A DNA stretch of 22,461 nucleotides from a virus (Duplodnaviria > Heunggongvirae > Uroviricota > Caudoviricetes): the IMG/VR virus record IMGVR_UViG_2657245448_000004; one strand, 5' to 3'. Positions 5,240 to 22,461 of this stretch are shown in pieces. The notes under the pieces were generated by a model, which saw nothing but the letters and a program-made list of their open reading frames with translations, had not been told where the DNA came from and did not search any database. Each line of letters starts with the position of its first letter. The first letter of the stretch is position 1. The position numbers and the translations under genes are program-made.

Positions 5240-5242
5240 CCC

Positions 5243-8711: not shown

Positions 8712-8739
8712 AGGCTTCCGCAAGGGGGCCTTTTTTATT
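8712..8739 (+). terminator. intrinsic terminator (tR'-like) downstream of Q
   Basis: 8-bp stem (aggcttcc / ggggcct, with two G-U pairs), GCAA tetraloop, followed by TTTTTTATT. Confidence 0.6.
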
Positions 8740-8966
8740 GCCCCATTCTGGGGAAAAGTTAATAAAACAGGGCTTTCGCTGCGAAAAAACGCTATGCAGT
8801 TTTTGCCCTTTTTTATGCACCTTTTATTCACTCGAATTTCGTCATTCTGGACCACTTAAGTTGATTAAATAGGCCTTTCATCGCAAATCTATTGCGAGCG
8901 GGGATCGTGTGGTTCCTATAACGTACATTATGTTAAATAACTTCCTTTTTTAACAAATTTAACAAG

Positions 8967-8990
8967 GTTCGCTATGGCGAACTTTTTTTG
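8967..8990 (+). terminator. second intrinsic terminator in the Q-holin intergenic region
   Basis: Perfect 6-bp stem GTTCGC / GCGAAC with loop tatg, followed by TTTTTTTGTATT. Confidence 0.55.
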
Positions 8991-9090
8991 TATTCAGGGC
9001 CCACCGAAGGACGGCTCATAACCCAATCCTACGGGCGTATACGCAGGGCCCGCCTTTCAACAACACCCCGTAATGGCGGAGGTGGGAAGT

Positions 9091-9432
9091 ATGAAAATGC
9101 ACAATGCTCCTCATTCCTGGCCTGACTTACTGGAACTCTTACAAAGTTGGTGGCGTGGAGATACGCCGTTGGGCGCAGTGGTTATGTCAATTGTTATGGC
9201 TGGCTTGCGCATTGCCTATTTTGGCGGTGGCGGCGGCTGGAAACGAAAAACGCTTGAGATTTTGCTCTGTGGTGCTCTGACGCTGACTTTTGCATCCGCT
9301 CTTGAGTATGTCGGATGGCCTAAATCGCTTTCTGTTGCCATTGGTGGTGGTGTTGGGCTGATCGGTGTCGATGCTATTCGTGGGGCTGCAATGCGAGTAA
9401 TCGGTAACAAGTTTGGTGGCTCTAAGGAGTAA
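9091..9432 (+). CDS. S: holin with lambda S-like dual-start (MKM) motif
   Basis: The ORF track starts at 9073, but a strong SD (GGAGG, 9078..9082) sits 8 nt ahead of the ATG at 9091. The product then begins MKMHNAPHSW, as lambda S begins MKMPEKHDLL (from memory), and has hydrophobic TM segments. It ends 3 nt before the endolysin gene. Confidence 0.8.
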   Translation: MKMHNAPHSWPDLLELLQSWWRGDTPLGAVVMSIVMAGLRIAYFGGGGGWKRKTLEILLCGALTLTFASALEYVGWPKSLSVAIGGGVGLIGVDAIRGAAMRVIGNKFGGSKE

Positions 9433-9435
9433 TTC

Positions 9436-9912
9436 ATGCAGACACTAAATTCCCAACGTAAAGCTTTCCTGGATATGGTGGCATGGTCAGAAGGAACGGA
9501 TAACGGGCGACAACCGACACGTAATCACGGTTATGACGTTATCGTCGGAGGTGAGTTGTTCACTGATTACTCCGATCACCCTCGCAAACTTGTCACGCTA
9601 AACCCGAAGCTTAAATCAACAGCCGCAGGCCGGTATCAGCTTCTTTCACGCTGGTGGGATGCCTACCGCAAGCAGCTTGGCCTGAAAGATTTTTCGCCAG
9701 AAAGTCAGGACGCTGTGGCGCTGCAGCAGATTAAAGAGCGTGGCGCTTTACCGATGATTGACCGTGGCGATATTCGTCAGGCAATCGACCGTTGCAGCAA
9801 TATCTGGGCGTCGTTACCTGGTGCAGGTTACGGTCAGTATGAACATAAAATCGGTGACCTGATTTCCAGGTTTAAAGATGCTGGTGGGGTGGTAAATGAA
9901 GCTGACTTATAA
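9436..9912 (+). CDS. R: endolysin, lambda R-like lytic transglycosylase
   Basis: 158 aa, same length as lambda R and near-identical over long stretches as I recall it (NSQRKAFLDM.AWSEGTDNGRQ.TRNHGYDVIVGGELFTDYSDHPRKLVTLNPKLKST.AGRYQLLSRWWDAYRKQLGLKDFSP). SD AAGGAG upstream. Confidence 0.95.
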   Translation: MQTLNSQRKAFLDMVAWSEGTDNGRQPTRNHGYDVIVGGELFTDYSDHPRKLVTLNPKLKSTAAGRYQLLSRWWDAYRKQLGLKDFSPESQDAVALQQIKERGALPMIDRGDIRQAIDRCSNIWASLPGAGYGQYEHKIGDLISRFKDAGGVVNEADL

Positions 9913-10420
9913 GATTGTCATCGCGGCATTTTTCTTCTCTGCCTTTGGGGCGCTCGTCTGGTCTGCAAACCATTACCACAGCAAGTATCAGGCAGAAAAG
10001 TTGCGGGCTGATAAAGCGGAAGGTGAAGCTGAATATCAAGGGAAAGTGATAGCTAATCAGGCATTAAACTTCAATCGTTTTAACCAGATAGCAGAAAACG
10101 CAAGCCGATTAAATTCTCTGGTCGACATCGGTCACGAGAAGACAGTCATCAAATACCGTGAGGTTCTGCTCCGTGAAAAGAACTGTGATTTCCCTGTTCC
10201 TGCTGATATTGCTGTCGGGTTGCTCAACTACGCGAACCGTTTACGCGCCAGCGCATTGCACGCCGATTCCGGGTACATTGACCCAGCCGGTGATCGTGCC
10301 ACTACCACCAGAACGTTGACATATTGCCAGGCTGTTCTGTGGATTAACCCATTGTTGGCAGCCATCGAGAAGGCGAATAACCAGTTGGCTGGTGTCCGAC
10401 AAATAGAACAGTCCCGGTAA
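9896..10420 (+). CDS. Rz: Rz-like inner-membrane spanin (i-spanin)
   Basis: 174-aa ORF overlapping the endolysin 3' end by 17 nt. N-terminal TM helix (IVIAAFFFSAFGALVW) followed by a charged, coiled-coil-like periplasmic domain; contains an embedded +1-frame lipoprotein gene. Confidence 0.75.
   Translation: MKLTYKIVIAAFFFSAFGALVWSANHYHSKYQAEKLRADKAEGEAEYQGKVIANQALNFNRFNQIAENASRLNSLVDIGHEKTVIKYREVLLREKNCDFPVPADIAVGLLNYANRLRASALHADSGYIDPAGDRATTTRTLTYCQAVLWINPLLAAIEKANNQLAGVRQIEQSR
10173..10319 (+). CDS. Rz1: Rz1-like outer-membrane lipoprotein spanin (o-spanin), embedded in Rz in the +1 frame, GTG start
   Basis: Hand translation of the +1 frame inside Rz: (M)KRTVISLFLLILLSGCSTTRTVYAPAHCTPIPGTLTQPVIVPLPPER. 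Lipobox LLSGC, proline-rich mature part, SD GAGG (10160..10163) 9 nt before the GTG. Absent from the ORF track (48 aa). Confidence 0.7.
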   Translation: MKRTVISLFLLILLSGCSTTRTVYAPAHCTPIPGTLTQPVIVPLPPER

Positions 10421-10481
10421 TAGCATTACAGAAGCTCTTCCAGGAGGGGCTTCGATAATGACCTGATAACTGGAAAATAAA

Positions 10482-11054
10482 ATGACTAAGAAGCTGAAAG
10501 CAAAACACGAGGTGTTTTGTCGCGAGTTTCTTGTCGATCTGAATGCTACACAAGCAGCTATTCGCGCAGGCTACGTCTCCAGGCGAGCACATGTTACGGG
10601 GGCTGAACTATACGGTAAACCTGAGATACGCGCCCGTATTAACGAGCTAAAGCAGGAGCGTATTGATCAACTGGGCATTGATGCGAATTATGTGCTGATG
10701 CGACTGGTTGAGATCGACAGGCTCGATGTGGCTGACATCCTAGAGGACGATTTAAGTATTAAGCCTCTGTCTGCGTGGCCGGAATCGTGGCGTCGGTACC
10801 TGAGTGGATTTAACCTCGCTGAAATGTTTGAGGGGCGAGGAGATGACAGAGAAATGGTCGGGATCCTTAAAAAGATTAAGTGGCCTGATAAGGTTAAAAA
10901 CCTTGAGTTGCTTGGGCGTCATGTTTCTGTTCAGGCGTTTAAAGACAACGTCAAAAATGAAGTGACTGGCGCTGATGGAGGACCAGTCAGAACAGAAATT
11001 ACCAACTTAACGCCGGAGCAGGCTGCAGAGGCGTATAGAAAAATGATGGGCTAA
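10482..11054 (+). CDS. terminase small subunit
   Basis: 190-aa ORF immediately upstream of the large terminase. N-terminal motif [20 protein letters not shown] resembles the small-terminase family as I recall it. Confidence 0.75.
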
Positions 11055-11056
11055 GT

Positions 11057-12679
11057 ATGCCGTTACCATTCCCCTTCGATTTTAAACATCCTGATTACCA
11101 GATGGTTTTTGAATGGCGGATGGAACGCCTACAGCGCATTCGCCAGAATCCTGAAATATTGCCTGCACTAAAACAGTTTTACCGAACCAATCCGGCTCAG
11201 TTCATCATCGACTGGGGCATGACAACGGACCCGCGTAATATTGATTATGGCCTGCCGGTGACCATTCCGTTTTTACTCTTCCCTAAGCAGGAGGAGTGGA
11301 TCCACTGGATTATGGAACGCTGGGGCAATCGGGAGAATGGTATTACCGAAAAATCCCGTGAAATGGGGCTCAGTTGGACCGCGATCGGACTGGCATGTTC
11401 GCTTTGTCTCTTCAACAAAGAAATGGTTATCGGTTTCGGCTCCCGTAAAGAGGAATACGTCGACAGCACCGGTGACCCGAAAGCATTGTTCTGGAAGGCG
11501 CGCAAGTTCGTGGAAACACTGCCTGTAGAGTTTCGCGGTTCGTGGAGCGAGAAGAAGCACGCGCCATATATGCGTGTTGAGTTTCCTGAAACTGGTGCCG
11601 TTATCAAAGGCGAGGCTGGCGATAATATTGGTCGTGGTGACCGTACCACGCTTTATCTGGTTGATGAGGCTGCATTCCTTCAGCGTCCTCTGCTGATTGA
11701 TGCGGCGTTGTCACAAACGACGCGTTGCCGTATCGACCTGAGTTCAGTTAACGGCATGGCTAACCCGTTCGCTCAGAAGCGTCATGGCGGGAAGATACCG
11801 GTATTCACATTCCACTGGCGGGATGATCCTCGCAAGGATGAAGAGTGGTATCGCAGGGAATGCGAGAAAATCGATAATCCGGTGGTGGTGGCACAGGAAC
11901 TTGATCTGAACTACAGCGCATCAGCGGAAGGCGTCCTGATTCCATCCGAATGGGTACAGGCTGCCGTTGATGCGCATATCAAACTGGGTATCCAGCCAAC
12001 AGGCAAACGACTTGGCGCGATGGATGTCGCCGACGAAGGCAGGGACAAAAATGCCTTTTCCACCCGTCATGGCTTCCTCCTGGAAAATGTGCGGGAATGG
12101 TCCGGTGTGGGCAGCGACATTTATCAGTCCGTCAAGAAGGTTTTCGGCTTTTGCGAACAGGACAACCTCGAAGAGTTTCGCTTTGACGAGGACGGGCTGG
12201 GCGCTGGCGTTCGCGGCGATGCACGCGCTATCAACGAACTGCGTAACGCTGCGCGTCGACCGTCAATACTTGCCACACCGTTTCGAGGTAGTGGCGCGGT
12301 ATTTGATCCGGATGATGAAGCTGTTCGCGGGGACAACGGGCAAGCCGCACGTCTGAACAAGGACTTCTTCGCTAACGCCAAAGCCCAGAGCTGGTGGCGG
12401 TTACGTAAACTTTTTCAGAATACCTGGCGCGCCGTGGTTGAAGGTATGGCTTACAACCCGGACGAAATCATCTCAATCAGCAGTAGCATGGCACTCAAAG
12501 ATAAACTCATCATCGAGCTTTCGCAGCCGACCTATTCCATTAATGGTGTGGGAAAAATAGTTATTGATAAACAGCCTGATGGAACCCGATCGCCAAACCT
12601 TGCCGACTCGGTGATGATCAACTATGCCCCAATGAATTCAGCCCTGAACATCTGGGAGCTGCTAGGGAGACAGGCCTGA
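11057..12679 (+). CDS. terminase large subunit
   Basis: 540-aa ORF between the small terminase and the portal, with start and stop tightly coupled to both neighbours. Size and position are typical; no specific motif verified. Confidence 0.75.
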
Positions 12680-14145
12680 TGGCACGAAACAAACAAGCCC
12701 TGCGGCGAACTGCGCAGGCCACAGCTGATGGTTATGAGAATTTTATTGCCCGCGTAGGGATGCAGACACCTAACCAGCACTCAGCATCCACCTACCGGGC
12801 TAATTTCACCAGTCGTAACCGCATGCTGGTGGAATGGTCCTATCGTTCGTCCTGGATCATCGGCGAAGCAGTCGATGCTATCCCGGATGATATGACCCGC
12901 AAAGGCATTCGCATCACTTCGGAAATTGATGCAAAAGATCGTGGCATTCTCGAATCACAACTGGATGAGTTGCAAATCTGGGATGCGCTGAATGACGTGC
13001 TGAAATGGTCGCGCCTCTACGGCGGCGCGGTGGGTTTCATCATGATTGAGGGGCAGGCACCAATGACCCCGCTGCGACCCGAAACCATCGGTAAGGGCAA
13101 GTTTAAGGGAATTCTCCCGCTCGACCGCTGGATGATTGACCCGGTACTGACCCGCCGCATTAAAGATATGGGGCCGGACCTGGGTAAACCTGAGTTTTAC
13201 GATGTGGTGACCACAGCAACGGGAATTCCTGCCTGGCGCATTCATCACAGTCGACTGATTCGCTTTGATGGCGTCACGCTGCCATTTCAGCAGAAGATGA
13301 CCGAGAACGAATGGGGAATGTCGGTTGTAGAGCGTATCTGGGATCGTCTTACCGCGTTCGACAGCGCTACTGTCGGCGCGGCGCAGCTGGTCTACAAAGC
13401 GCATTTGCGTACCTACAGCGTGGAGAAGCTACGCGAGCTTATCGCACTTGGTGGTCCTGCGTATGAAGCGTTGCTGAAGAATATTGACCTGATTCGACAG
13501 TTCCAGAGCAATGAAGGCATGACTCTCATGGACTCGCGGGATAAGTTTGAAACCCATCAGTACAGCTTCAGTGGTCTGGATGACATCCTTTCACAGTTTG
13601 CAGAACAGATTAGTGGCGCTGTTGGTATCCCACTGGTGCGGTTGTTCGGACAGTCCCCGAAGGGATTTTCTACCGGCGATGCAGACCTTGCCAACTATTA
13701 CGACCGGGTAAGCTCGTTGCAGGAGAGGCGTTTACGTCTTCCGGTGCGGCGGATACTGGACATCATGCATCGTTCGGAACTTGGCAAGCCGCTGCCGGAC
13801 GATTTCACGTTTGAGTTTAACCCGCTCTGGCAAATGTCTGATGTCGATCGCTCAACGGTGGCGTTAAACACTACCAACGCAATCAGTACAGCGCTGGGTG
13901 ATGGTCTGATGACACTGAAAGCCGCTATGACTGATTTGCGAGAAAATTCTGACGTAACCGGCATCGGGGCATCCATTACCGACGAGGACATCGAGAATGC
14001 CGAAGATGAAGCGCCGCCCGGCATCGGCGAACCTGATGACGAACCGCAGGAACCGTCAGGCGGAAATCCGGTATCGAACCAGCCTACGCAGGATAGCGCG
14101 GGCGGTCGGGGACATCGTAAATGGTCACTACGATGGTTCAAATGA
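12679..14145 (+). CDS. portal protein
   Basis: 488-aa ORF whose ATG overlaps the terminase stop (TGATG). Position and size fit a portal; acidic C-terminal tail. Confidence 0.7.
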   Translation: MARNKQALRRTAQATADGYENFIARVGMQTPNQHSASTYRANFTSRNRMLVEWSYRSSWIIGEAVDAIPDDMTRKGIRITSEIDAKDRGILESQLDELQIWDALNDVLKWSRLYGGAVGFIMIEGQAPMTPLRPETIGKGKFKGILPLDRWMIDPVLTRRIKDMGPDLGKPEFYDVVTTATGIPAWRIHHSRLIRFDGVTLPFQQKMTENEWGMSVVERIWDRLTAFDSATVGAAQLVYKAHLRTYSVEKLRELIALGGPAYEALLKNIDLIRQFQSNEGMTLMDSRDKFETHQYSFSGLDDILSQFAEQISGAVGIPLVRLFGQSPKGFSTGDADLANYYDRVSSLQERRLRLPVRRILDIMHRSELGKPLPDDFTFEFNPLWQMSDVDRSTVALNTTNAISTALGDGLMTLKAAMTDLRENSDVTGIGASITDEDIENAEDEAPPGIGEPDDEPQEPSGGNPVSNQPTQDSAGGRGHRKWSLRWFK

Positions 14146-14770
14146 CAGTATCACGGAAATTATTGAGGCGCTGGAGCGCTACAGTGAAATCATCACCCCC
14201 TGGGCGACAAAGGTCGCGGAAAACTTTACCGCCGATATTGTGCGCAAGAATGATGAGCAGTGGCGTAAACACAGCAAAACCATCAGCCGTGAGCTACGCA
14301 ATCTGGTAAACAGTGCCCCGCCAGGGCAGGTGATGAAATCCATCGTTGCTGAACAGGTTAAGTACATTAAATCGCTACCCCTCGAGGCGGCTGACAGGGT
14401 GTACGACATCCAGAATCGGGCGATTGAAGCTGTTGTGACCGGTGGGAGAGCGGAACATTTTGCTAAAGAAATAGCCGCATCGGGTGATATAGCAAAGTCC
14501 AGAGCTGACCTGATTGCCCGTACTGAACTTGGACGTGCAACCGGCGCGCTGGATCAGGCGCGTGCGCTGGCAATTGGTTCGAATGGTTATATCTGGCGTA
14601 CAGCCGAAGATGGTGACGTCAGGCATTCTCATCGGGAAATGGAAGGTAAATTTGTCGAATGGGGCAAACCTCCAACGCTTGATGGCATGACCGGTCACGC
14701 TGGCGAGCTCCCGAATTGCCGCTGTTATAAAGAAATCGTTTTTCCCACCTCCCATTCTTATCCCGCCTGA
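13997..14770 (+). CDS. head morphogenesis protein (Mu F / SPP1 gp7-like); start uncertain
   Basis: The C-terminal region (LIARTELGRATGALDQA ... WRTAEDGDVRHSHREMEGKFVEWG) resembles the MuF-like domain. The ORF as drawn overlaps the portal 3' end by 149 nt, so the true start may lie further downstream. Confidence 0.65.
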   Translation: MPKMKRRPASANLMTNRRNRQAEIRYRTSLRRIARAVGDIVNGHYDGSNDSITEIIEALERYSEIITPWATKVAENFTADIVRKNDEQWRKHSKTISRELRNLVNSAPPGQVMKSIVAEQVKYIKSLPLEAADRVYDIQNRAIEAVVTGGRAEHFAKEIAASGDIAKSRADLIARTELGRATGALDQARALAIGSNGYIWRTAEDGDVRHSHREMEGKFVEWGKPPTLDGMTGHAGELPNCRCYKEIVFPTSHSYPA

Positions 14771-14784
14771 ATCGCAGGTAACAC

Positions 14785-16005
14785 ATGAAATATTTTTTCA
14801 ATACCCGGCTGGGGGAAACCCGCTATCAGCTGGCTGACGGCTCGTTGCTGTGCAAAGACGTGCCGATAGGACGAACAGGTAAGCAGCTCTATGGTGCTGA
14901 TGACCTGCCAAAACTGAAACCCGATAAGTTCGGTGAAATAGTCGTCACGCGTTCTCCTGAGCAGGTATTCCATCCGGCCACGCTCGCCTCATTCGAAGGG
15001 ATGAGCATCACGATCCTGCATCCTGAAGATGAAAACGGGAATGTGCGGCTGGTAAATCCCGAGAACTGGAAAGAGCTTGCTGTCGGGCACCTCCAGAATG
15101 TCCGGCGCGGGACGGGTGAGCAGTCTGATTTGATGCTGGCTGACCTTATCGTCAAAGACGAAAACGCCATTCAGCTTATCGAAGATGGCCTGCGAGAAGT
15201 GTCGTGCGGCTATGACGCGGAGTACGAGCAGACCGAGCCAGGTAAAGCCGGGCAGGTCGATATTACCGGAAACCATGTGGCTCTTGTCCCCAAAGGCAGA
15301 GCCGGAAATCGTTGTGCAATTGGAGACAGAGACACAATGGCAAATCAAAAGAAAAACTGGTGGAACCGCATGCGTGCAGCCATCAAGACAGGAGATGCCG
15401 ACACCATGAACGAACTGGTGGAGTCGGCTCCCGCATCGGTTACAGGAGATGAGGGGGATTTGCCGCAGGGCGTTAATCTCAACATCAACCTGTCCCCGCA
15501 GCAACCACTACCGGACAAAGCACCAGAGATGGGTGGAGGTCCAACCGGCGACAGTGATGATGACCTCAAAACATTACTGAAAGCCCTGCTGGCTAAGCTG
15601 GAAGGAAATGCCACGGGCGATAACGATAATAAGCCTGACGATAATCCGACCGGTGACGGCGAGGACGATGAAGAGGAAACCACGATTACTGGTGACTCAG
15701 CCTGGCGTGCCGAAGTTATCGTTCCGGGTATCGATCTGAGCCGTAAGATGAAACCGACCGAGTTCAAACGCGAGGTTCTGGCTTCCGCAGATAAAACGCT
15801 GGTTCGCCAGATTGTCGGTGATGCGGATATCCGCAAATTGCCGAAACAATCGGTCGACATGGCGTTTAATGCCGTGTCTGAGATTGCCAAAGGGCGAAAC
15901 ACCCGCGCCACCACCGGCGATGCACAGCGCCTAAACATGGGCATGACCAGTATCGCTTCCCTGAACAAACAAAACGCTGAATTCTGGGCAAACCGTAAAG
16001 GGTAA
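14785..16005 (+). CDS. putative prohead scaffold/protease-like protein
   Basis: 406-aa ORF between the MuF-like and capsid genes, with an acidic, low-complexity central region (GDSDDD, DNDNKPDDNPTGDGEDDEEE) typical of scaffolds. The family label (DUF2213-like) is from memory. Confidence 0.5.
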   Translation: MKYFFNTRLGETRYQLADGSLLCKDVPIGRTGKQLYGADDLPKLKPDKFGEIVVTRSPEQVFHPATLASFEGMSITILHPEDENGNVRLVNPENWKELAVGHLQNVRRGTGEQSDLMLADLIVKDENAIQLIEDGLREVSCGYDAEYEQTEPGKAGQVDITGNHVALVPKGRAGNRCAIGDRDTMANQKKNWWNRMRAAIKTGDADTMNELVESAPASVTGDEGDLPQGVNLNINLSPQQPLPDKAPEMGGGPTGDSDDDLKTLLKALLAKLEGNATGDNDNKPDDNPTGDGEDDEEETTITGDSAWRAEVIVPGIDLSRKMKPTEFKREVLASADKTLVRQIVGDADIRKLPKQSVDMAFNAVSEIAKGRNTRATTGDAQRLNMGMTSIASLNKQNAEFWANRKG

Positions 16006-16008
16006 AAA

Positions 16009-16515
16009 ATGAATAATGTATTTCTGTACCGGATGCCTGTTGGCATTGCCGGGGCTGTCTCTCGCCCGCAGGACTTAACCGTCGAACCGGTGGTCCTTAA
16101 ATCCGATAACGCCTTCGCTGCCTATGGCCTGGCTGGTAAATACGATGATGACGGTTTTTTCGTGCCGCTGGCAGATGGTGATACCGCAGACAAGGTAAAG
16201 GGGATCTACGTGCGCCCTTATCCGACCACGTCGCAGCCGGACATGGTTCGCCAGGTGGGAACAGGCAAGAACTTCCCGGGCGACGCCATGAAGCGTGGCT
16301 ACGTGACTGTTAATCTCGGTTCTGATTTTGATGCCAGCACCATCAAAAAAGGCGACCCGGTATACGTTGTCGTCTCCACTGATGAATCCATCAAAGTGCC
16401 GCTGGGGGGATTCATGTCCACGTCAGTCAGTGGCAAAAATGTGGTGCTGACCAACGCTGAATTCACAGGTGCCGGTGATGCTGACGGCAATGCAGAAATT
16501 TCCTGGAAGATTTAA
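16009..16515 (+). CDS. putative head decoration/cement-like protein
   Basis: 168-aa ORF starting 4 nt after the scaffold-like gene and directly upstream of the major capsid gene. Function is assigned by position only. Confidence 0.45.
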   Translation: MNNVFLYRMPVGIAGAVSRPQDLTVEPVVLKSDNAFAAYGLAGKYDDDGFFVPLADGDTADKVKGIYVRPYPTTSQPDMVRQVGTGKNFPGDAMKRGYVTVNLGSDFDASTIKKGDPVYVVVSTDESIKVPLGGFMSTSVSGKNVVLTNAEFTGAGDADGNAEISWKI

Positions 16516-16526
16516 GGAACAGACGA

Positions 16527-17468
16527 ATGATTACTTTTGATCAGGCAACCGTTGACAGCTCTGGTGCCTTTCTCATCGGGGAGCTGGAGCGACTCGACCA
16601 GACGCTGAACCTGCCACTGGTGGGGTACACCTGGACCCGCGATATTCAGTTGCGTGAAGATGTCTCTATCGCAGATGACATTTCCAGCTGGACGAATACC
16701 AGCTTCGCCGCTGCGGGTACTGGTGCAAATCCGAATGGCAAAAACTGGGTAGGCAAAGACTCAACCGCTATTGCTGGCGTGAACGTGGATATCGGCAAAT
16801 CCGGTAACCCGCTGAACCTGTGGGGGATGGAACTTGGCTGGACGGTCATAGAATTGCAGGCTGCTCAGCAGGTCGGCCGCCCGATTGATACGCAGAAGTA
16901 TGACGGTATGCAACTGAAATGGCAGATGGATAACGATGAACAGGTATATGTTGGCGATTCCGCATTAAACCTGAAAGGCCTTGTTACCCTGGACGGCGTG
17001 CCTGTCAACAACGCTGCCAAAACGTGGGCAACCTCAACACCGGACGAAATCCGCGCAAGCATTAACCAGGTGCTGTCTGATGCGTGGGCCGCTTCCGGTT
17101 ACTCTGTGGTTCCGCGTGATTTGCTGATCCCGCCTGAGCAGTTTGCTCTGTTGTCCAGCATCATCGTTTCATCTGCGGGTAACCAGTCCCTGTTGACGTA
17201 TCTTCAGACCAACACCATCAGCTATCACCAGAACGGTGTTCCGCTGAATATCCGCGCGGTTAAATGGCTGAAAGGCCGTGGTGTGAGGAAAAAGGATCGC
17301 ATGGTTGCGTACACCAACGATAAAAAATACGTTCGCTACCCGCTGGTTCCGCTTCAGAGCGTGCCGGTGCAGTATCGCGGTCTGTATCAGATCGTCACTT
17401 ACTACGGCAAGCTGGGTGCGGTTGAGCCAGTGTACAAAGAAACCATTTCGTACGTTGATGGCATTTAA
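16527..17468 (+). CDS. major capsid protein (putative)
   Basis: 313-aa ORF in the canonical position after the scaffold and decoration genes, followed by a GC-rich stem-loop. Family recognition is tentative. Confidence 0.6.
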   Translation: MITFDQATVDSSGAFLIGELERLDQTLNLPLVGYTWTRDIQLREDVSIADDISSWTNTSFAAAGTGANPNGKNWVGKDSTAIAGVNVDIGKSGNPLNLWGMELGWTVIELQAAQQVGRPIDTQKYDGMQLKWQMDNDEQVYVGDSALNLKGLVTLDGVPVNNAAKTWATSTPDEIRASINQVLSDAWAASGYSVVPRDLLIPPEQFALLSSIIVSSAGNQSLLTYLQTNTISYHQNGVPLNIRAVKWLKGRGVRKKDRMVAYTNDKKYVRYPLVPLQSVPVQYRGLYQIVTYYGKLGAVEPVYKETISYVDGI

Positions 17469-17476
17469 CAGCCACA

Positions 17477-17495
17477 TGGCCCCCTGGCGGGGCCA
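17477..17495 (+). other. GC-rich stem-loop after the major capsid gene
   Basis: 7-bp stem tggcccc / ggggcca with loop ctggc, 9 nt past the capsid stop and lacking a U-tract. A possible transcript-stabilising or partial-termination element. Confidence 0.35.
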
Positions 17496-17509
17496 TTAAG
17501 GATGACCCG

Positions 17510-17731
17510 ATGGCAAAAAATAATGCAGTAATACACGTACATACCCCGTTTGTGCTCACGCTTCCCGACGGTTCACGGCGCGAGTTTGTTAAAGGCCGTC
17601 ATGCTGTGGAGGAAGACGTTGCCACGCACTGGTTCACTCGTGCGCACGCGGAAGTATCCGTTGGCAAAGCCACAGACGCGCGTAACGAGGTAAAAAATGC
17701 CAAAGAATCAAAATCTGCCAGCGGTAAGTGA
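17510..17731 (+). CDS. small hypothetical head-module protein
   Basis: 73-aa ORF with an SD-like AAGGATGA upstream; sits between the capsid and connector genes. Confidence 0.45.
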
Positions 17732-18104
17732 TTTTCGCCGCGACTTCCCGCAGTTTGCTGACCCTGCCAAATATCCCGAAGCGCAAATCCAGTTTCGTCT
17801 GAATCTGGCCGATGAACTGCTGAGCGAAAACGTCACCGGCAAAAAGTTGTTTCCGTATTTTGCCGGATTGTTCGTTGCACACTACATGACGCTCTGGGCG
17901 GCAGACAGCCGGGCGATGCTGGCTGGCGGGCCGGGCGGTTCAACCAATGGTGTTCAGTCCTCAAAGTCCGTTGACAAGGTAAGCGTCAGCTATGACACCA
18001 GCGCGACGCTGAATCCTGATGCAGGTTTCTGGAATAACACCCGATATGGCGCTGAATTTTATCAGTTGATCACGATGTTCGGTGCAGGCGGTCGCCAGCT
18101 ATGA
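17697..18104 (+). CDS. putative head-tail connector/adaptor protein
   Basis: 135-aa ORF with SD GAGG at 17685..17688; overlaps the upstream ORF by 35 nt and the downstream ORF by ATGA. Function assigned by position. Confidence 0.5.
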
Positions 18105-18655
18105 GTTTCAAAAGCGGTGTAACAACGAGGGTGGATAACGCTAAGGCCATTCTGGATGCGCTCAGGTCGTTAACCAAAAAAGATGTGCTGGTCGGCATCC
18201 CTTCGGAAGACAGCGGGCGGGATGATGTTCCGTTTGGTAATGCGGGCATCGGTTACCTCAACGAATACGGCTCACCAGAGCAGAACATCCCGCCACGACC
18301 TCACCTGGTCCCCGGCGTTAAATCGGCAGAAGAGCAGACGGTGCCGCAGCTCAAAACCGCGGCGCAGGCTGCTCTTGATGGTAATGCTGCGGGAGCAGAA
18401 CGCGCACTCAACCGTGCCGGAACGCTGGCCGCTAATGGCGTCAGGCGTTACATGACTATTACCGGCTTTACGCCGCTTGCTGACAGCACTGTTGAAGCCC
18501 GGGCTCGTCGGGGGCGCAAGGGGGCAACACTGGAACTTGCCCGGCGTGTTGCTGGCGAATCTCCCGGAACCGATCTGGCGAAACCATTAATTGACACCGG
18601 GCAATATCGCAGAGCTATTACCCATGTAGTGAGGGATAAAGATGCCGACTCTTGA
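18101..18655 (+). CDS. putative neck/head-closure protein
   Basis: 184-aa ORF coupled to its upstream neighbour by an ATGA overlap. Function assigned by position. Confidence 0.45.
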
Positions 18656-19031
18656 TGTAACAGATGTGCTTTTTGACCCCGATTTTTGCGGCTTCAATTT
18701 GTGGGTAACACGCCGAGTGCAAACGGTGGATGAGGACGGGATCGGCAGCGACAGTGAAGTTAAAAAGCAGTTTGCCGGAGTCGTAACTGTTGATCGCTCT
18801 CTGGAAAACCGTCGTATGCAGGCCGGGCAGGTAATCAGTGGTGCAATTCTGATTGTGACGACTGAGCGACTGACACAGGGACAGACTGGCCGTGATGCCG
18901 ATATCGTGACGTATCAGGGCCGTGATTATCGTGTGACTTTCGTCGACCCGTATACAGCGTATGGTGCCGGATTCGTTCAGGCGCATTGTGAGTTGATGCC
19001 GTTTGATGGGGGAACTCCGGTTGAGCAATAA
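18642..19031 (+). CDS. putative tail-completion/neck protein
   Basis: 129-aa ORF with SD GAGGGA upstream; overlaps its neighbours in the usual late-operon manner. Confidence 0.45.
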   Translation: MPTLDVTDVLFDPDFCGFNLWVTRRVQTVDEDGIGSDSEVKKQFAGVVTVDRSLENRRMQAGQVISGAILIVTTERLTQGQTGRDADIVTYQGRDYRVTFVDPYTAYGAGFVQAHCELMPFDGGTPVEQ

Positions 19032-19569
19032 CACCAGTACAGAGCGCGGATGGTTAATACCAACCAGTGGCGATCCGGATTATGACGAAGCGCTCGACAG
19101 GCTGTTAAGCCAGTGGATGCGTAACGTTTCCGGCCTGTCTGCCGGGATGGTTCGCCCGCGCTGGCAGAAAGAGCAGCCGCCACTGCTACCGGTTGAAACG
19201 AACTGGTGTGCGTTTGGGGTTATCGGATGGTCAGGTGATGACAGTCCGGCATTCACCAGACAGACCGATGATGGCTCTCAGCTCTGGCGGCATGAAACGA
19301 TTGAGTGTATGGCTTCGTTTTATGGACCGGCGGGGATGGTGTATGCGTCCCGGTTTCGTGACGGTATATCTGTGCCGCAGAACAATGCAGCACTGAATGC
19401 GCTGGGGCTGTCTCTTGGCGATTACACAGGTCTGACTCCCTTCCCTGAACTTATTAATCAGCAATGGGTCCGCCGCTACGATATGACGGTGCGCCTGCGC
19501 CGGAAGGTTGTGCGCGAGTACGGTATTAAATCGCTGGTGGAAGCACCAGTCATCTTTTTCGGAGATTAA
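19003..19569 (+). CDS. hypothetical tail-module protein; start uncertain
   Basis: 188-aa ORF overlapping the upstream gene by 29 nt; an alternative downstream start is possible. Confidence 0.45.
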   Translation: MMGELRLSNNTSTERGWLIPTSGDPDYDEALDRLLSQWMRNVSGLSAGMVRPRWQKEQPPLLPVETNWCAFGVIGWSGDDSPAFTRQTDDGSQLWRHETIECMASFYGPAGMVYASRFRDGISVPQNNAALNALGLSLGDYTGLTPFPELINQQWVRRYDMTVRLRRKVVREYGIKSLVEAPVIFFGD

Positions 19570-19572: not shown

Positions 19573-20718
19573 ATGGCACAGGGCTTGCCTGTATCAAACG
19601 TTGTTAATGTTGATGTGATCATGTCGCCGCGTGCAGCATCAGGGCGAAATTTTGGTGCATTACTCATTCTCGGCCCGTCCACAATCATTCCGGTAAGTGA
19701 GCGCATTCGCCGTTATTCTGCCGCGGAAGATATTGGAAAAGATTTTGGCGTGGAATCACCAGAATATAAAGCTGCGCAGGTGTTTTTCTCACAATCACCG
19801 AAACCTCAGGAGGTTTTTGTTGGTCGTTGGGTGAAAACGAAGGGAGACAGCGAACAGGCCACGCCTGAGACGCTGGAGCAGGCTGTGAATGCCATGCTTG
19901 ATTATACTTCATGGTATGGGCTGGGGATTGCAGACGATGCAGATATTCCGGATGCAGACTGGCTGAAAGTGGCTGCGGCGATCGAATCCTCTTCTGTAAG
20001 CCGTATTCTGGCGATTACGACAAGCGATGAGAAATGCCTGCAGACTGCATCCAGAGATGATTTGGCATCAAAACTGAAAAGCGCCGGATATTCACGCAGT
20101 TTTATACAATATTCATCGGGTAATAAATTCGCTGCGTTATCTGCATTTGGCCGGGCATTCACGGTTAATTTCAATGGCAGTAATACCGCGATTACGCTCA
20201 AGTTTAAGCAGGAGCCGGGTGTCGGGTATGAAACACTGACAGTCAGCCAGGCATCGGCACTTGATGCAAAAAACTGCAATGTGTTCGTGTACTACCAGAA
20301 TGATACAGCTATCCTCCAGCAGGGAGTGATGGCTAACGGCGATTTCTTTGATGAACGCCACGGCCTGGACTGGTTACAGAATTATGTGCAGACCAACCTC
20401 TATAACCTGCTTTATACCAGCACCACGAAGGTTCCCCAGACTGAAGCCGGTATTACCCGACTGTTATCAAATGTTGAAAAATCACTGGATCAGGCCGTTC
20501 AGAATGGACTGATTGCTCCGGGCGTATGGAACGGTGGCGACCTTGGCCAGTTGTCATCAGGTGACACGCTGCCCAAAGGTTATTACGTATACGCCCAGCC
20601 GCTGGATGAACAGGCACAATCAGAACGTGAAGCCCGTAAGGCTCCGGTGATTCAGGCTGCAATAAAACTTGCAGGCGCGGTTCATTACGCTGACGTACAG
20701 ATTAACGTTGTTCGCTAA
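19573..20718 (+). CDS. major tail structural protein (sheath-like, putative)
   Basis: 381-aa ORF with SD GGAGA, directly upstream of a tube-like gene. The sheath-like family label is from memory and is low certainty. Confidence 0.5.
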
Positions 20719-20728
20719 GGGGAAGTGA

Positions 20729-21169
20729 ATGTCTACCTATTCTTTTATGGATGTCACTGCGACGCTGACCGGGCCGACCGGTTCGATTGACCTCGGGTAC
20801 GGTTCGGCAAGTTCTGAAGAGGGGATTGTGGTTGCGATGGGCGGTCCTAAAAACACCATGACCATCGGTGCTGATGGTGAAGTGATGCACAGCCTCCATG
20901 CAGATAAAAGCGGGACGATTACCGTTAACCTTCTGAAGACATCACCGACAAATAAAAAATTGTCGCTGGCGTATAACGCACAGAGCCAGTCTTCTGCCAC
21001 ATGGGGGAATAACGTTATCGTTATCCGCAACAAGGTCAGCGGCGACATCATCACGGCACGCAGTGTTGCGTTCCAGAAACAACCGGATAACGCCAACGCT
21101 AAAACCGGTAATACGATGCCGTGGGTGTTTGACTGCGGCAAGATTGACCAGGTTCTCGGGGAGTTTTAA
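20729..21169 (+). CDS. tail tube-like protein (putative)
   Basis: 146-aa ORF with SD AAGGGGAAG, between the major tail protein and the chaperone. Confidence 0.5.
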   Translation: MSTYSFMDVTATLTGPTGSIDLGYGSASSEEGIVVAMGGPKNTMTIGADGEVMHSLHADKSGTITVNLLKTSPTNKKLSLAYNAQSQSSATWGNNVIVIRNKVSGDIITARSVAFQKQPDNANAKTGNTMPWVFDCGKIDQVLGEF

Positions 21170-21172
21170 TGC

Positions 21173-21625
21173 ATGGAATTCGAAATTAAAGGCGTGAAAT
21201 ATCGCACGGCAAAACTCAGCGTTTTTGACCAGCTGAAAGTGACCCGCAAACTTCTGCCGGTGCTGGCAGGAATGATGTCAGATTTCGGGAGTATTCGCTC
21301 CCGTTTGCCTGCTGACGGCAAAATCGACACCGTGAAATTCGAACAGTTAAAACCGGTGTTTGAAACCATGCTCCCGCGTATCGCTGAGGAACTGTCTTCC
21401 CTGACCGAAGATGACACCGATGCGATTATTCATCCCTGTCTTGCGGTGGTATCGCGGCGTCATATGGACGGATGGGTGCCGGTATTTACCCAGGGCGAAC
21501 TGATGTTTGATGATATTGACTTGCTGGTCATGCTGCAGCTGGTGGCGCGGGTGGTCGCCGATTCGCTGGGAAATTTTTTGCCTACACCCCTTACCAGCAC
21601 GACGCAGAGCCTGCAACAGGGCTGA
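21173..21625 (+). CDS. tail assembly chaperone (gpG-like)
   Basis: 150-aa ORF immediately upstream of the tape-measure gene. Carries a U-rich slippery heptamer near its 3' end, and an open -1 frame extends to the tape-measure start. Confidence 0.6.
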   Translation: MEFEIKGVKYRTAKLSVFDQLKVTRKLLPVLAGMMSDFGSIRSRLPADGKIDTVKFEQLKPVFETMLPRIAEELSSLTEDDTDAIIHPCLAVVSRRHMDGWVPVFTQGELMFDDIDLLVMLQLVARVVADSLGNFLPTPLTSTTQSLQQG

Positions 21626-21813
21626 CGTTTAACAGCCTGCCGGACGGGCTGTCCTACCTTCTCAATCCGGTTGACGCCGGGTTAATTCCTTATACAGCAC
21701 TTAAAGATGGCTCTGTCGATTTGTATGACATTGCTCTCTTGAATGACCATCTGGCGGTAAAAGCGGATAACCAGCGACGCATTGAGAAATGGAGAGAGGA
21801 TAATGAACGCTGA
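21173..21813 (+). CDS. putative chaperone frameshift-fusion product (gpGT-like) made by -1 slippage at TTTTTTG (21574..21580)
   Basis: Heptamer T_TTT_TTG lies in the zero frame (codons TTT 21575..21577, TTG 21578..21580). The -1 frame is open from 21580 to a TGA at 21811..21813 and encodes AYTPYQHDAEPATGLTFNSLPDGLSYLLNPVDAGLIPYTALKDGSVDLYDIALLNDHLAVKADNQRRIEKWREDNER. Confidence 0.5.
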
Positions 21814-22038
21814 AACTATTAAAGATTTCCTCGTCTCGCTTGGCTTCCGTGTGGATGATGCAGGAGCGAAAAAGTTCGGTTCTGTCCTCGCCGGTACAAC
21901 TGCAAATGTCATCAAAATGGGGCTGGCTGTTGAAGGGGCTGCGCTGTCCGTGGTGGCCTTCACGGCTAAGATCGCCTCCGGCCTGGATAATCTTTACTGG
22001 GCGTCACAGCGCACCGGCGCGACGGTCCAGGGAATTCA
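21803..22038 (+). CDS. tail tape-measure protein, N-terminal part (truncated by ambiguous bases)
   Basis: ATG at 21803 preceded by SD GGAGAGAGGA; the ORF track's TTG at 21782 is less likely. Product begins MNAETIKDFLVSLGFRVDDAGAKKFG and sits directly after the chaperone. The reading frame is lost at the N-run. Confidence 0.5.
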
Positions 22039-22052
22039 NTNNAGACNGCNNN
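22039..22052. other. cluster of ambiguous bases (N) next to an EcoRI site; possible assembly or cloning junction
   Basis: Seven N calls at 22039, 22041, 22042, 22047 and 22050..22052; GAATTC at 22032..22037 immediately upstream. Coding character changes across this point. Confidence 0.9.
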
Positions 22053-22460
22053 GTTGTCGTTCTGCAAACATCGAAAGCGGAAATCATTGGGAATGGCGTG
22101 GATGAGACGACGCTGACAGCAACAGTAAAAGATCCTTTTGATAACGTGGTTAAAAATCTGTCAGTAGTCTTCCGCACCTCCCCCGCAGACACGCAACTGA
22201 GTCTGAACACGCGTAATACTAATGAGAACGGTATTGCTGAAGTTACCCTTAAGGGCACGGTTTTGGGTGTTCATACAGCCGAAGCCATACTGCTTAACGG
22301 CAATAGAGATACGAAGACAGTCAATATTGCGCCCGATACCAGCAACGCGCAGGTCACCCTGAACATCCCTGCTCAACAGGTGGTGACGAATAACAGCGAC
22401 AGCGTGCAGCTGACGGCAACGGTGAAAGATCCGTCGAATCATCCGGTGGCGGGAATAACG
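22053..22460 (+). CDS. fragment encoding bacterial Ig-like (Big_1-type) repeats, invasin/intimin-like adhesin; partial at both ends
   Basis: Hand translation of the frame beginning at 22053: VVVLQTSKAEIIGNGVDETTLTATVKDPFDNVVKNLSVVFRTSPADTQLSLNTRNTNENGIAEVTLKGTVLGVHTAEAILLNGNRDTKTVNIAPDTSNAQVTLNIPAQQVVTNNSDSVQLTATVKDPSNHPVAGIT. The repeated LTATVKDP...G motif is characteristic of Big_1 repeats. No stop before the window end. Confidence 0.55.
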
Positions 22461-22461
22461 G

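What the first reader, a model, noticed from the sequence alone, without database searches (positions are those of the whole stretch)
21574..21813. Probable -1 programmed ribosomal frameshift in the tail assembly chaperone gene (gpG/gpGT-like)
A slippery heptamer T_TTT_TTG sits in the correct register 43 nt before the chaperone stop. The -1 frame stays open from the slip site for 77 codons of protein-like sequence and stops exactly where the tape-measure gene starts. This reproduces the conserved chaperone frameshift architecture of tailed phages and predicts a longer fusion product of about 213 aa made at low frequency.
Basis: partly seen in the sequence, partly recalled or inferred. Interest (0 to 1): 0.5.

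Follow-up and report, generated by a model that had tools for sequence, protein, structure and literature searches.

The report
Tail chaperone -1 frameshift site, confirmed
This E. coli prophage has the usual tail-chaperone arrangement of tailed phages, in which a few ribosomes slip back one base on a run of T's to make a longer fusion protein; comparison with about 75 relatives supports it strongly, and it is an ordinary, already familiar mechanism.

Summary
The chaperone ORF (21173..21625, Pfam Phage_TAC_15) lies between the tail-tube and tape-measure genes. T_TTT_TTG (21574..21580) is in register. The -1 frame stays open for 77 codons to a TGA at 21811-21813, which overlaps the tape-measure ATG (21803). 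The -1 peptide matches Pfam DUF6889.

In 66 distinct relatives from other species, the in-register T6 run is invariant and synonymous codon variation falls to zero at AAT-TTT-TTG. Purifying selection switches to the -1 frame directly after the run. The -1 ORF always ends at the tape-measure start. Nine distant phages (27-39% identity) share this architecture.

Two refinements:
- The site is a compound run, G_GGA_AAT_TTT_TTG, containing three overlapping heptamers. Distant relatives use X_XXT_TTT, the equivalent of A_AAT_TTT here. The exact slip codon is therefore unresolved, and the junction is either NFF|AY or NFL|AY.
- The proposed hairpin (21632-21652) lies 51 nt downstream, after the stop. 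It is not conserved and not significant, so it is not a stimulator.

Phage P2 E/E+E' uses the same TTTTTTG without a downstream structure. GenBank records of the homologous phages Mulock and Magia already carry joined frameshift CDSs. This is a new member of a known kind, of low interest. Its practical value is an annotation correction: DUF6889 "genes" are the frameshift-encoded C-terminal part of the chaperone fusion.

The parts
20729..21169 (+). Tail tube gene, directly upstream of the chaperone
   Evidence: Pfam PF11681 (KPP10_Orf10 / Phage_Tube_PhiTE), E 9e-61. The sheath gene (19573..20718, DUF3383 / phrog_205 tail sheath) and the neck terminator gene (19003..19569) lie further upstream.
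21173..21625 (+). Tail assembly chaperone ORF (0 frame, 150 aa; the 'G'-like short product)
21568..21580 (+). Compound slippery run G_GGA_AAT_TTT_TTG: three overlapping in-register heptamers (21568-74, 21571-77, 21574-80)
   Evidence: In 66 distinct relatives the codons here are GGA 60/66, AAT 60/60 of Asn, TTT 66/66 and TTG 60/60 of Leu. Elsewhere in the gene the same codons make up 10%, 41%, 50% and 12% of their amino acid's codons. The ratio of observed to expected synonymous codon entropy is 0 at codons 134-136, against a gene mean of 0.79.
21574..21580 (+).
   Evidence: T_TTT_TTN is in register in 66/66 relatives (TTG 60, TTT 5, TTC 1). In L030 and L058 a -1-frame stop (TAG or TAA) lies immediately 5' of the first T, so the shift must occur on the T run. 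Phage P2 E/E+E' uses the same heptamer (PMC3091744).
21571..21577 (+). A_AAT_TTT, an alternative or additional slip position, with the conserved Phe135 codon in the A site
   Evidence: Distant relatives have X_XXT_TTT at the homologous Phe codon: A_AAT_TTT in Acinetobacter, C_CCT_TTT in Burkholderia and G_GGT_TTT in Ralstonia. Two others keep only T_TTT. Sharma et al. 2014 single out R_RR.U_UU.Y motifs as shift-prone in E. coli despite the heterogeneous RRU codon, and find a heterogeneous ZZN codon such as UUG a poorer shifter than the homogeneous UUU/UUC (PMC4066793).
21580..21813 (+). -1 frame extension ('T'-like part): 77 codons plus TGA. The fusion product is 213 aa
   Evidence: In relatives the -1 frame runs 61-66 codons past the 0-frame stop in 64 of the 66 distinct loci, against mostly 2-10 (maximum 59) for the +1 frame. 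Codon-position entropy is 0.75/0.61/1.38 in the -1 frame, the same pattern as the N part. In the first 12 codons after the run, pairwise aa identity is 0.60 in the -1 frame and 0.35 in the 0 frame.
21688..21804 (+). DUF6889 domain, encoded in the -1 frame
   Evidence: Pfam PF21829, E 1.2e-20, residues 37-75 of the extension; phrog_4364, E 1.8e-23. PGAP annotates it as a separate 54-aa CDS with a CTG start at window position 21649.
21623..21625 (+). 0-frame stop of the chaperone
   Evidence: The tail after the heptamer is 14 codons long in 53 of 66 relatives.
21791..21805 (+). Shine-Dalgarno-like GGAGAGAGG and the ATG (21803) of the tape-measure gene, embedded in the last codons of the -1 ORF (W R E D N E R)
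   Evidence: Read from the sequence. PGAP places the start at the same position. The N-terminal 78 aa hit tape-measure PHROGs 12506 and 2276.
21803..22036 (+). 5' part of the tape-measure gene, cut off in the window by a chimeric junction
21632..21652 (+).
   Evidence: dG -12.5 kcal/mol, z -1.9, and 14 of 200 shuffles fold as well. It begins 51 nt after the heptamer and lies after the 0-frame stop. The 3' arm is not conserved, and the consensus fold of 25 relatives has only 2 pairs at -0.12 kcal/mol.

Best explanation

Most ribosomes translate 21173..21625 into a 150-aa chaperone. A minority slip back one base on the run G_GGA_AAU_UUU_UUG (21568-21580) and continue in the -1 frame to the TGA at 21811-21813. 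This gives a 213-aa fusion of the chaperone domain with a DUF6889 domain.

Two slip positions are plausible:
- Tandem slippage on U_UUU_UUG, giving the junction ...GNFL|AYTP.
- Slippage on A_AAU_UUU, or on the U_UUU tetramer, giving ...GNFF|AYTP.

No downstream RNA structure is involved. The signal is the slippery run alone, as reported for phage P2 E/E+E'.

By analogy with lambda gpG/gpGT, the short form would coat the tape-measure protein. The rare long form would add a C-terminal domain that recruits the tube protein. The fixed frameshift frequency would set the ratio of the two forms.

What is shown here: the architecture, the coding status of the -1 frame, and the location and conservation of the slip site. 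What is inferred: that the shift is ribosomal, its frequency, and the roles of the two products.
For: 1. Synteny is neck terminator, sheath, tube, chaperone, (-1 ORF), tape measure. The 177-nt stretch between the chaperone stop and the tape-measure start is filled exactly by the -1 ORF.

2. In 66 distinct loci from other species (46-86% aa identity), T_TTT_TTN is in register in 66/66. In the 64 intact copies the -1 ORF extends 61-66 codons past the stop and ends at or overlapping the next gene's start.

3. Synonymous variation collapses only at codons 132-136: TTT 66/66 against 50% elsewhere, AAT 60/60 against 41%, TTG 60/60 against 12%, and GGA 60/66 against 10%.

4. Directly after the run, variability peaks at -1-frame codon position 3 (entropy 0.92/0.86/1.33). 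Amino-acid identity is 0.60 in the -1 frame and 0.35 in the 0 frame.

5. The window has no ATG or GTG in the -1 ORF before the DUF6889 domain; 33 of 66 loci, the window's family among them, lack one. Annotated starts of DUF6889 'genes' are inconsistent.

6. Stops in the -1 frame immediately 5' of the T run in L030 and L058 pin the shift to the run.

7. Nine distant phages (27-39% identity) share the architecture. All tblastn matches end at residue 134-135, which is the slip site.

8. One extra T makes a single 213-aa ORF carrying both Pfam domains (P0001 / L152).

9. P2 E/E+E' frameshifts at TTTTTTG without a downstream structure (PMC3091744). The lambda G/GT role is described in PMC5009743.

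10. GenBank records of the homologous phages Mulock and Magia carry joined 'frameshift product' CDSs.
Against: There is no experimental evidence for this phage, and none was found for this protein family.

According to Sharma et al. 2014, a heterogeneous A-site codon such as UUG is a poorer shifter in E. coli than UUU or UUC. No stimulatory structure is present either. The frequency may therefore be low and is unknown.

Sequence alone cannot separate ribosomal slippage from RNA-polymerase slippage on the T6 run.

The 66 relatives are not phylogenetically independent, so the counts overstate the statistical weight.

The functional roles of the two products are by analogy only. There is no sequence similarity to lambda gpG/gpT or to P2 gpE.
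Confidence: 0.85

Rival explanations
1. Transcriptional slippage. RNA polymerase occasionally adds one extra U while copying the T6 run, making a minority of mRNAs in which the chaperone and the DUF6889 domain are in one frame. The protein outcome (junction NFF|AY) and the biology would be the same, but the slip would be made by the polymerase rather than the ribosome.
For: The invariant element is a homopolymer, T6, and it is T7 in 5 of 66 relatives. A T7 DNA variant gives the in-frame fusion. A 2022 paper, cited in PMC12846349 and known here only from its title, proposes a non-translational route for the chaperones of T4-like phages.
Against: From general knowledge, efficient slippage by E. 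coli RNA polymerase needs runs of about 8-9 or more A or T; a run of 6 is short.

Distant relatives have only T4, or no T run at all (Bordetella: G_GGA_AAT). Those keep X_XXY_YYZ register and have a hairpin 5-7 nt downstream, which is a ribosomal signature.

Synonymous constraint also covers GGA and AAT upstream of the T run. That makes sense for tRNA re-pairing but not for polymerase slippage.
Confidence: 0.07
2. DUF6889 is an independent small gene, as RefSeq/PGAP and many GenBank records annotate it. It would be translated from its own start codon in the gap between the chaperone and tape-measure genes, with no frameshift.
For: PGAP calls a 54-aa CDS here. Databases hold many stand-alone DUF6889 entries of 43-78 aa. 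Half of the relatives have an internal ATG or GTG before the domain.
Against: In the window the -1 ORF has no ATG or GTG at all before the domain. The first canonical start, TTG at 21721, would cut the domain. PGAP had to use CTG.

Annotated N-termini differ from record to record.

Protein-level conservation and -1-frame codon periodicity begin directly at the slippery run, 23 codons upstream of the annotated start and inside the chaperone ORF.

This reading gives no reason for zero synonymous variation at AAT-TTT-TTG.
Confidence: 0.04
3. Chance or decay. The overlap would be a frameshift mutation or sequencing error that split one ancestral gene, or the open -1 frame would be a compositional accident.
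For: The source sequence is of imperfect quality near its right end (Ns at 22039-22052). T5 and T7 length variants occur in public assemblies.
Against: Hundreds of independent genomes hold the same sequence: 368 E. coli genomes hold a match (62 at >=99% identity), and 78 of 80 IMG/VR loci contain CTGGGAAA followed by exactly six T.

The two-frame arrangement is kept across Enterobacterales, Acinetobacter, Burkholderia, Ralstonia and Bordetella phages.

The rare broken copies (L012, L038, L053) are visibly degraded in other ways.
Confidence: 0.01

Closest known systems
Phage P2 gpE / gpE+E' (FETUD tail operon)
   Same: It is a contractile-tailed temperate enterobacterial phage with the gene order sheath, tube, chaperone, (-1 ORF), tape measure. 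[quoted passage not shown] No downstream RNA structure is present (PMC3091744).
   Different: No P2-type family appeared among the Pfam or PHROG hits, which were Phage_TAC_15, DUF6889 and phrog_1688. P2 gpE is 91 aa and gpE+E' 142 aa, against 150 and 213 aa here. Here the T run is embedded in a longer run with two more heptamers.
Phage lambda gpG / gpGT
   Different: Lambda has a non-contractile tail and, from general knowledge, the slippery sequence G_GGA_AAG. There is no detectable sequence similarity. The functions of the two products are untested for this family.
Klebsiella phage Mulock and Burkholderia phage Magia 'tape measure chaperone frameshift product' (GenBank annotations)
   Same: They are true homologues. 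Mulock's chaperone is 60% identical and has the identical CTTGGGAAATTTTTTG run and a 63-codon -1 extension. Magia is a distant homologue (42% over the C-terminal part) with the same architecture.
   Different: These are annotation-level predictions without experiments; the Mulock paper does not mention the frameshift. Magia has C_CCT_TTT plus a hairpin 5 nt downstream instead of a T6 run.
Pakpunavirus / Vandenendeviridae chaperone locus (phage Adele study)
   Same: [quoted passage not shown]
   Different: It concerns lytic Pseudomonas phages. Homology of their chaperone to this one was not tested here. The motif is reported only as GTTTTT.

Membership tests
Conserved tail-assembly-chaperone -1 frameshift of tailed phages (lambda G/GT type; Xu, Hendrix & Duda 2004) | The two ORFs lie between the major tail (tube) gene and the tape-measure gene | tested here: met
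   Tube 20729..21169, chaperone 21173..21625, -1 ORF to 21813, tape-measure ATG at 21803.
Conserved tail-assembly-chaperone -1 frameshift of tailed phages (lambda G/GT type; Xu, Hendrix & Duda 2004) | The second ORF overlaps the 3' end of the first in the -1 frame and lacks its own initiation signal | tested here: met
   The overlap is 21520..21625. In the window the -1 ORF has no ATG or GTG before the domain, and 33 of 66 relatives likewise lack one.
Conserved tail-assembly-chaperone -1 frameshift of tailed phages (lambda G/GT type; Xu, Hendrix & Duda 2004) | A slippery X_XXY_YYZ sequence lies in register within the overlap and is conserved among relatives | tested here: met
   There are three overlapping heptamers. 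T_TTT_TTN is present in 66/66 relatives, with zero synonymous variation at the site.
Conserved tail-assembly-chaperone -1 frameshift of tailed phages (lambda G/GT type; Xu, Hendrix & Duda 2004) | The -1 frame is under protein-coding selection from the slip site onward | tested here: met
   Codon-position entropies follow the -1 frame (0.75/0.61/1.38), the peptide hits DUF6889, and aa identity in the overlap is 0.60 against 0.35.
Conserved tail-assembly-chaperone -1 frameshift of tailed phages (lambda G/GT type; Xu, Hendrix & Duda 2004) | The fusion product is actually made at low frequency and is needed for tail assembly | not testable with these tools
   This needs a reporter assay, western blot or mass spectrometry, plus genetics.
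Tail assembly chaperone protein fold (HK97 gp / lambda gpG-like) | The short product has the chaperone fold or matches a chaperone family profile | tested here: met
   [not shown]
Stimulated -1 PRF signals (dnaX / IS911 type: heptamer plus downstream hairpin or pseudoknot, or upstream SD-like element) | A stable structure starts 5-9 nt 3' of the heptamer and is conserved or covarying | tested here: not met
   The first predicted stem starts 21 nt downstream, with z -0.8 to -1.4. The consensus fold of 25 relatives is empty. Mean z over 63 relatives is -0.26. There is no Rfam match.
Stimulated -1 PRF signals (dnaX / IS911 type: heptamer plus downstream hairpin or pseudoknot, or upstream SD-like element) | An SD-like element lies 6-17 nt upstream of the motif | tested here: inconclusive
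   G-rich stretches (GGGTGG at -25..-20; GGGA at -6..-3) are present but not at the canonical spacing. Apart from GTG127 and CTG132, synonymous conservation upstream of codon 132 is only mildly below the gene mean (mean ratio 0.67 for codons 125-132 against 0.79). No dedicated test was run.

The most novel reading that the evidence does not exclude
Within the Phage_TAC_15 family the frameshift signal may come in two interchangeable designs.

- Enterobacterial members such as this one carry a long, structure-free slippery cassette (G_GGA_AAU_UUU_UUG). It offers up to three consecutive slip opportunities.
- Distant members (Burkholderia, Acinetobacter, Edwardsiella, Bordetella) carry a minimal X_XXU_UUU, a bare U_UUU, or G_GGA_AAU, together with a hairpin 4-7 nt downstream.

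In addition, the nucleotide-invariant cassette may act as a recombination joint. That would let the DUF6889 domain travel with the tape-measure module rather than with the chaperone/tube module.
Probability: 0.3. Interest if true: 0.35.

Novelty: new member of a known kind. Interest (0 to 1): 0.2.

Why it matters
The main value is for annotation.

- In RefSeq and in most phage records of this group, the -1 ORF is called as a separate "DUF6889 family protein". It is often misnamed "NTP pyrophosphohydrolase" and given arbitrary non-ATG starts.
- The evidence here says DUF6889 is the frameshift-encoded C-terminal domain of the Phage_TAC_15 chaperone. That gives a function-level context to a Pfam domain of unknown function.
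- It also suggests that the matching loci found in 368 complete E. coli genomes could carry a joined CDS at this position.

Mechanistically it adds one more well-supported, structure-independent T-run frameshift site in an E. coli host. The site could be tested cleanly because its three overlapping heptamers can be separated by synonymous mutations. It does not change the understanding of frameshifting or of tail assembly.

Tried and rejected
1. It was folded alone and in context and tested on 25 relatives. It is too far away (51 nt), lies after the stop, and is neither conserved nor significant. Rejected.

2. Any other downstream structure. MFE z-scores for the 55 nt after the run in 63 distinct relatives have mean -0.26, and the window scores -1.4. 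Nothing was found.

3. Rfam scan of 21300..21950 at E<=1. The only hit was a spurious miRNA match below threshold.

4. Promoter and terminator scan of 20700..22036. No promoter was found, and terminator-like sites were at chance level. There is no sign of a separate transcription unit for the -1 ORF.

5. Search for natural in-frame chaperone-DUF6889 fusions.
- The only one found was P0001, a T7 variant from one sequencing run. It is probably a homopolymer error or a mutant.
- It shows that +1 T joins the two domains, but it is not an evolutionary fusion.

6. Structure of the whole fusion. The MAFFT alignment of the fusion with short homologues was misaligned, so the two parts were modelled separately.
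- The chaperone model has pLDDT 66 and the T part 64, with only a C-terminal helix confident.
- Foldseek against the PDB gave nothing.
- A PDB sequence search gave nothing.

7. The papers of Christie 2002 and Vladimirov 2022 are not in the library. The roughly 10% frequency for P2 is therefore recalled from memory, not verified.

8. An upstream SD-like stimulator was only inspected by eye. No convincing element at canonical spacing was seen.
Full report
**The observation**

The window carries a tightly packed tail module on the + strand:
- neck terminator, 19003..19569
- sheath, 19573..20718 (DUF3383, phrog_205)
- tube, 20729..21169 (PF11681)
- a 150-aa ORF, 21173..21625, that matches Pfam Phage_TAC_15 (E 4.9e-31) and PHROG 1688 "tail assembly chaperone" (E 3.6e-65)
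- a gene starting at ATG 21803 whose first 78 residues match tape-measure PHROGs

The codons around the site are CTG GGA AAT TTT TTG CCT, so T_TTT_TTG (21574..21580) is in X_XXY_YYZ register. The -1 frame is open from 21520 to the TGA at 21811-21813. Reading from 21580 gives 77 codons, and the fusion is 213 aa. The tape-measure ATG is at 21803, so the -1 ORF overlaps it by 11 nt. The hairpin spans 21632-21652.

It contains three overlapping in-register heptamers.

**Is it more than chance?**

Within the window, 21 + strand ORFs contain 22 in-register heptamers. Only the three at this site are followed by 77 or more open -1 codons. The other 19 have 36 or fewer, and the median of all 22 is 7.5.

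The 77-residue -1 peptide matches Pfam DUF6889 (E 1.2e-20) and phrog_4364 (E 1.8e-23). It is therefore a conserved protein domain, not an accidental open frame.

**Comparative evidence, near relatives**

The same DNA is found at 100% identity in four E. coli phages (vB_EcoM-606R2 and others), and 368 of 5426 complete E. coli genomes hold a match (62 at >=99% identity).

A scan of one genome per species gave 67 loci with chaperones 46-86% identical. With four annotated loci, and after removing duplicates and three degraded copies, 66 distinct sequences remained. In them:
- T_TTT_TTN is in register in 66/66 (TTG 60, TTT 5, TTC 1).
- G_GGA_AAT and A_AAT_TTT are each absent from a minority of lineages, nine and seven loci respectively in the listing, so the T run is the common denominator.
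- The -1 frame continues 61-66 codons past the 0-frame stop in all of them and ends at or overlapping the next gene's start. The +1 frame mostly closes within 2-10 codons.
- In L030 and L058 a -1-frame stop (TAG or TAA) sits immediately 5' of the first T. A productive shift there can only occur on the T run.

Codon choice at the site is fixed:

| Codon | At the site | Share of that amino acid's codons elsewhere in the gene |
|---|---|---|
| GGA | 60/66 | 10% |
| AAT | 60/60 of Asn | 41% |
| TTT | 66/66 | 50% |
| TTG | 60/60 of Leu | 12% |

The ratio of observed to expected synonymous codon entropy is 0 at codons 134-136, 0.28 at codon 133 and 0.41 at codon 132. The gene-wide mean is 0.79.

Directly after the run, nucleotide variability peaks at the third position of the -1 frame (entropy 0.92/0.86/1.33). 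That position is the second position of the 0 frame. Pairwise amino-acid identity over the next 12 codons is 0.60 in the -1 frame and 0.35 in the 0 frame. Across the whole extension, the codon-position entropies (0.75/0.61/1.38) match those of the N-terminal part (0.74/0.47/1.39). Selection therefore switches frame at the run.

These sequences are related to one another, so the counts are not independent trials.

**No independent start**

In the window the -1 ORF has no ATG or GTG. The first canonical start, TTG at 21721, would truncate the DUF6889 domain. PGAP nevertheless annotates a 54-aa "DUF6889 family protein" with a CTG start at window position 21649. Database entries for DUF6889 are short stand-alone ORFs of 43-78 aa with inconsistent N-termini, often named "NTP pyrophosphohydrolase". 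Thirty-three of the 66 relatives lack any ATG or GTG before the domain. No promoter and no convincing terminator separates the two ORFs.

**Distant relatives**

A tblastn search with the chaperone against 50,697 phage records gave 40 hits. Every match ends at query residue 134-135, which is the slip site.

Nine distant loci (27-42% identity) were examined: phages of Bordetella, Edwardsiella, Providencia, Acinetobacter (2), Burkholderia (3) and Ralstonia. All have a -1 ORF running 56-76 codons past the stop to the tape-measure start. In each it encodes a recognisably homologous domain (LPGGEDWLLRPV...ESL.DG.L.LADIALMND.L.V.A.N).

Their slip motifs differ:

| Phage | Motif |
|---|---|
| Acinetobacter (2 phages) | A_AAT_TTT |
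| Burkholderia BgManors32 and Magia | C_CCT_TTT |
| Ralstonia | G_GGT_TTT plus T_TTT_TTC |
| Providencia | T_TTT_TTT |
| Burkholderia E192a and Edwardsiella ZHS | bare T_TTT only |
| Bordetella | G_GGA_AAT only |

Apart from Bordetella, the family-wide core is thus T_TTT with the conserved Phe codon (Phe135 here) in the A site. That is the position of A_AAT_TTT in the window, not of T_TTT_TTG.

Sharma et al. 2014 measured all heptamers in E. coli. They single out R_RR.U_UU.Y motifs, which include A_AAU_UUU, as shift-prone despite the heterogeneous RRU codon. They find that "heterogeneous" A-site codons such as UUG shift less well than UUU or UUC. They rank the U_UU.U tetramer among the most shift-prone tetramers (PMC4066793).

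I therefore treat the exact slip codon as unresolved. Slippage on U_UUU_UUG gives ...GNFL|AYTP. Slippage on A_AAU_UUU or U_UUU gives ...GNFF|AYTP. Both products are 213 aa.

**Stimulatory elements**

- Its z-score is only -1.9, and 14 of 200 shuffles fold as well.
- It starts 51 nt after the heptamer and lies beyond the 0-frame stop.
- Its 3' arm is not conserved.

The 50 nt after the heptamer fold no better than shuffles (z -0.8), and the first stem starts 21 nt downstream. The consensus fold of 25 diverse relatives has two base pairs and -0.12 kcal/mol. Over 63 distinct near relatives the mean z is -0.26. Rfam gives nothing.

The signal in this clade therefore appears to be the slippery run alone. 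The same is reported for P2 E/E+E', which shifts at the same TTTTTTG and lacks a downstream structure (PMC3091744, citing Christie 2002 and Xu 2004).

The distant relatives with short motifs behave differently. The six with T4 and the Bordetella phage with G_GGA_AAT have a predicted hairpin starting 4-7 nt downstream. Examples are GGGCUGCU...AGCAGCCC in Burkholderia, GGACUG...CAGUCC and GGGCUG...CAGCCC in Acinetobacter, and GGAGCUG...CAGCUCC in Edwardsiella. Not all of these folds score better than shuffles: z ranges from -0.75 to -4.13, and it is -0.75 to -1.24 for the three Burkholderia loci. The two distant relatives with T6-T7 runs have no such hairpin. That is nine sequences and a pattern, not a test.

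**The proteins**

The AF2 model of the chaperone is of moderate confidence (pLDDT 66). Residues 135-150, the 0-frame tail after the slip site, score below 50.
- Foldseek against the PDB found nothing.
- A sequence search of the PDB found nothing.

The T part models as a disordered linker followed by a long C-terminal helix (pLDDT 64).

The proposed roles are taken from the lambda model (PMC5009743) and were not tested here. In that model the short form coats the tape measure, the long form recruits tube subunits, and the ratio is set by the frameshift frequency.

**Rivals**

- Transcriptional slippage on T6 would give the same protein with the NFF junction. A run of 6 is short for E. coli RNA polymerase (general knowledge). 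The constraint extends to GGA and AAT. Relatives with T4 plus a hairpin, or with G_GGA_AAT, point to the ribosome. I give this about 0.07.
- An independent DUF6889 gene is contradicted by the missing start and by -1-frame conservation that begins inside the chaperone ORF.
- A mutation or sequencing error is contradicted by the hundreds of matching genomes and by conservation across bacterial orders.

**Comparison with what is known, and novelty**

This is the conserved tail-chaperone frameshift of Xu, Hendrix and Duda (2004), with the P2 heptamer, in the SEN34/Mulock group of temperate myophages. GenBank records of two homologues, Mulock and Magia, already carry joined "frameshift product" CDSs, although the Mulock paper does not discuss it. 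RefSeq and most other records do not.

I rate it a new member of a known kind. The useful by-product is that Pfam DUF6889 can be read as the frameshift-encoded C-terminal domain of Phage_TAC_15 chaperones.

**Verdict**

Confidence that a -1 shifted fusion is made is 0.85. Interest is 0.2.

Noticed in passing
window 22032..22461: The right end of the window is a chimera. The tape-measure gene breaks off at an EcoRI site (GAATTC, 22032-22037), followed by Ns at 22039-22052. From 22053 the sequence is a fragment of the chromosomal adhesin gene yeeJ (Big_1 / Invasin_D3 domains; 100% identical to many E. coli genomes). No complete E. coli genome holds both parts side by side.
   Followed up: yes
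window 21649..21813, and database entries P0122-P0148: The -1 ORF is annotated in RefSeq as a separate 54-aa 'DUF6889 family protein' with a CTG start. In many records it is named 'NTP pyrophosphohydrolase'. The annotated N-termini differ from record to record. These look like artefacts of not modelling the frameshift.
   Followed up: yes
L139-L145 (IMG/VR prophages), junction at the slip site: There is a mosaic breakpoint at the slippery run. The tube gene and the chaperone N part are 94-99% identical to the window, but the sequence after the T run drops to 59% identity and is 88% identical to another lineage (L071). The DUF6889 part thus travels with the tape-measure module, and the invariant run may serve as a recombination joint.
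   Followed up: partly
L153, L154, L156, L157, L159-L161 (distant phages): Distant homologues with a short slippery motif (X_XXT_TTT, bare T_TTT, or G_GGA_AAT) have a predicted hairpin starting 4-7 nt downstream. The arm sequences differ between genera but remain complementary. Homologues with T6-T7 runs (Providencia, Ralstonia and the whole enterobacterial clade) have none. This may be a trade-off between slippery-run length and a stimulatory structure; n = 9.
   Followed up: partly
P0001 / L152 1896..1912; P0003, P0066: Public assemblies contain length variants of the T run. A T7 version (one sequencing run, SRR23924998) gives a single 213-aa ORF with junction GNFFAY. Two proteins (P0003, P0066) read into the +1 frame after GNF, as a one-T deletion (T5) would give. 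These are probably homopolymer errors or mutants, and it was not determined which.
   Followed up: partly
window 21791..21813: The last codons of the -1 ORF (W R E D N E R, then stop) contain the tape-measure gene's Shine-Dalgarno-like GGAGAGAGG and its ATG. The strong conservation of the ...KWRE.NER end may therefore partly reflect the overlapping translation start.
   Followed up: no
L012, L038, L053, L144: A few relatives are degraded copies. L012 and L144 have an early frameshift in the chaperone. L038 has a 1-nt indel inside the DUF6889 region. In L053 the domain is cut and replaced by unrelated sequence. These are the only exceptions to the conserved architecture.
   Followed up: yes
window 1..19000: The rest of the window is a temperate-phage genome segment:
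- DUF2800/PD-(D/E)XK nuclease (701..2002, - strand)
- cI-like repressor with an S24 peptidase domain (4223..4897, - strand)
- Prim-Pol/DUF5906 replication protein (5243..7504)
- small terminase (10482..11054)
- portal (12679..14145)
- DUF2213 protein, function not assigned here (14785..16005)
- major capsid protein (16527..17468)
   Followed up: partly
[not shown]
   Followed up: no
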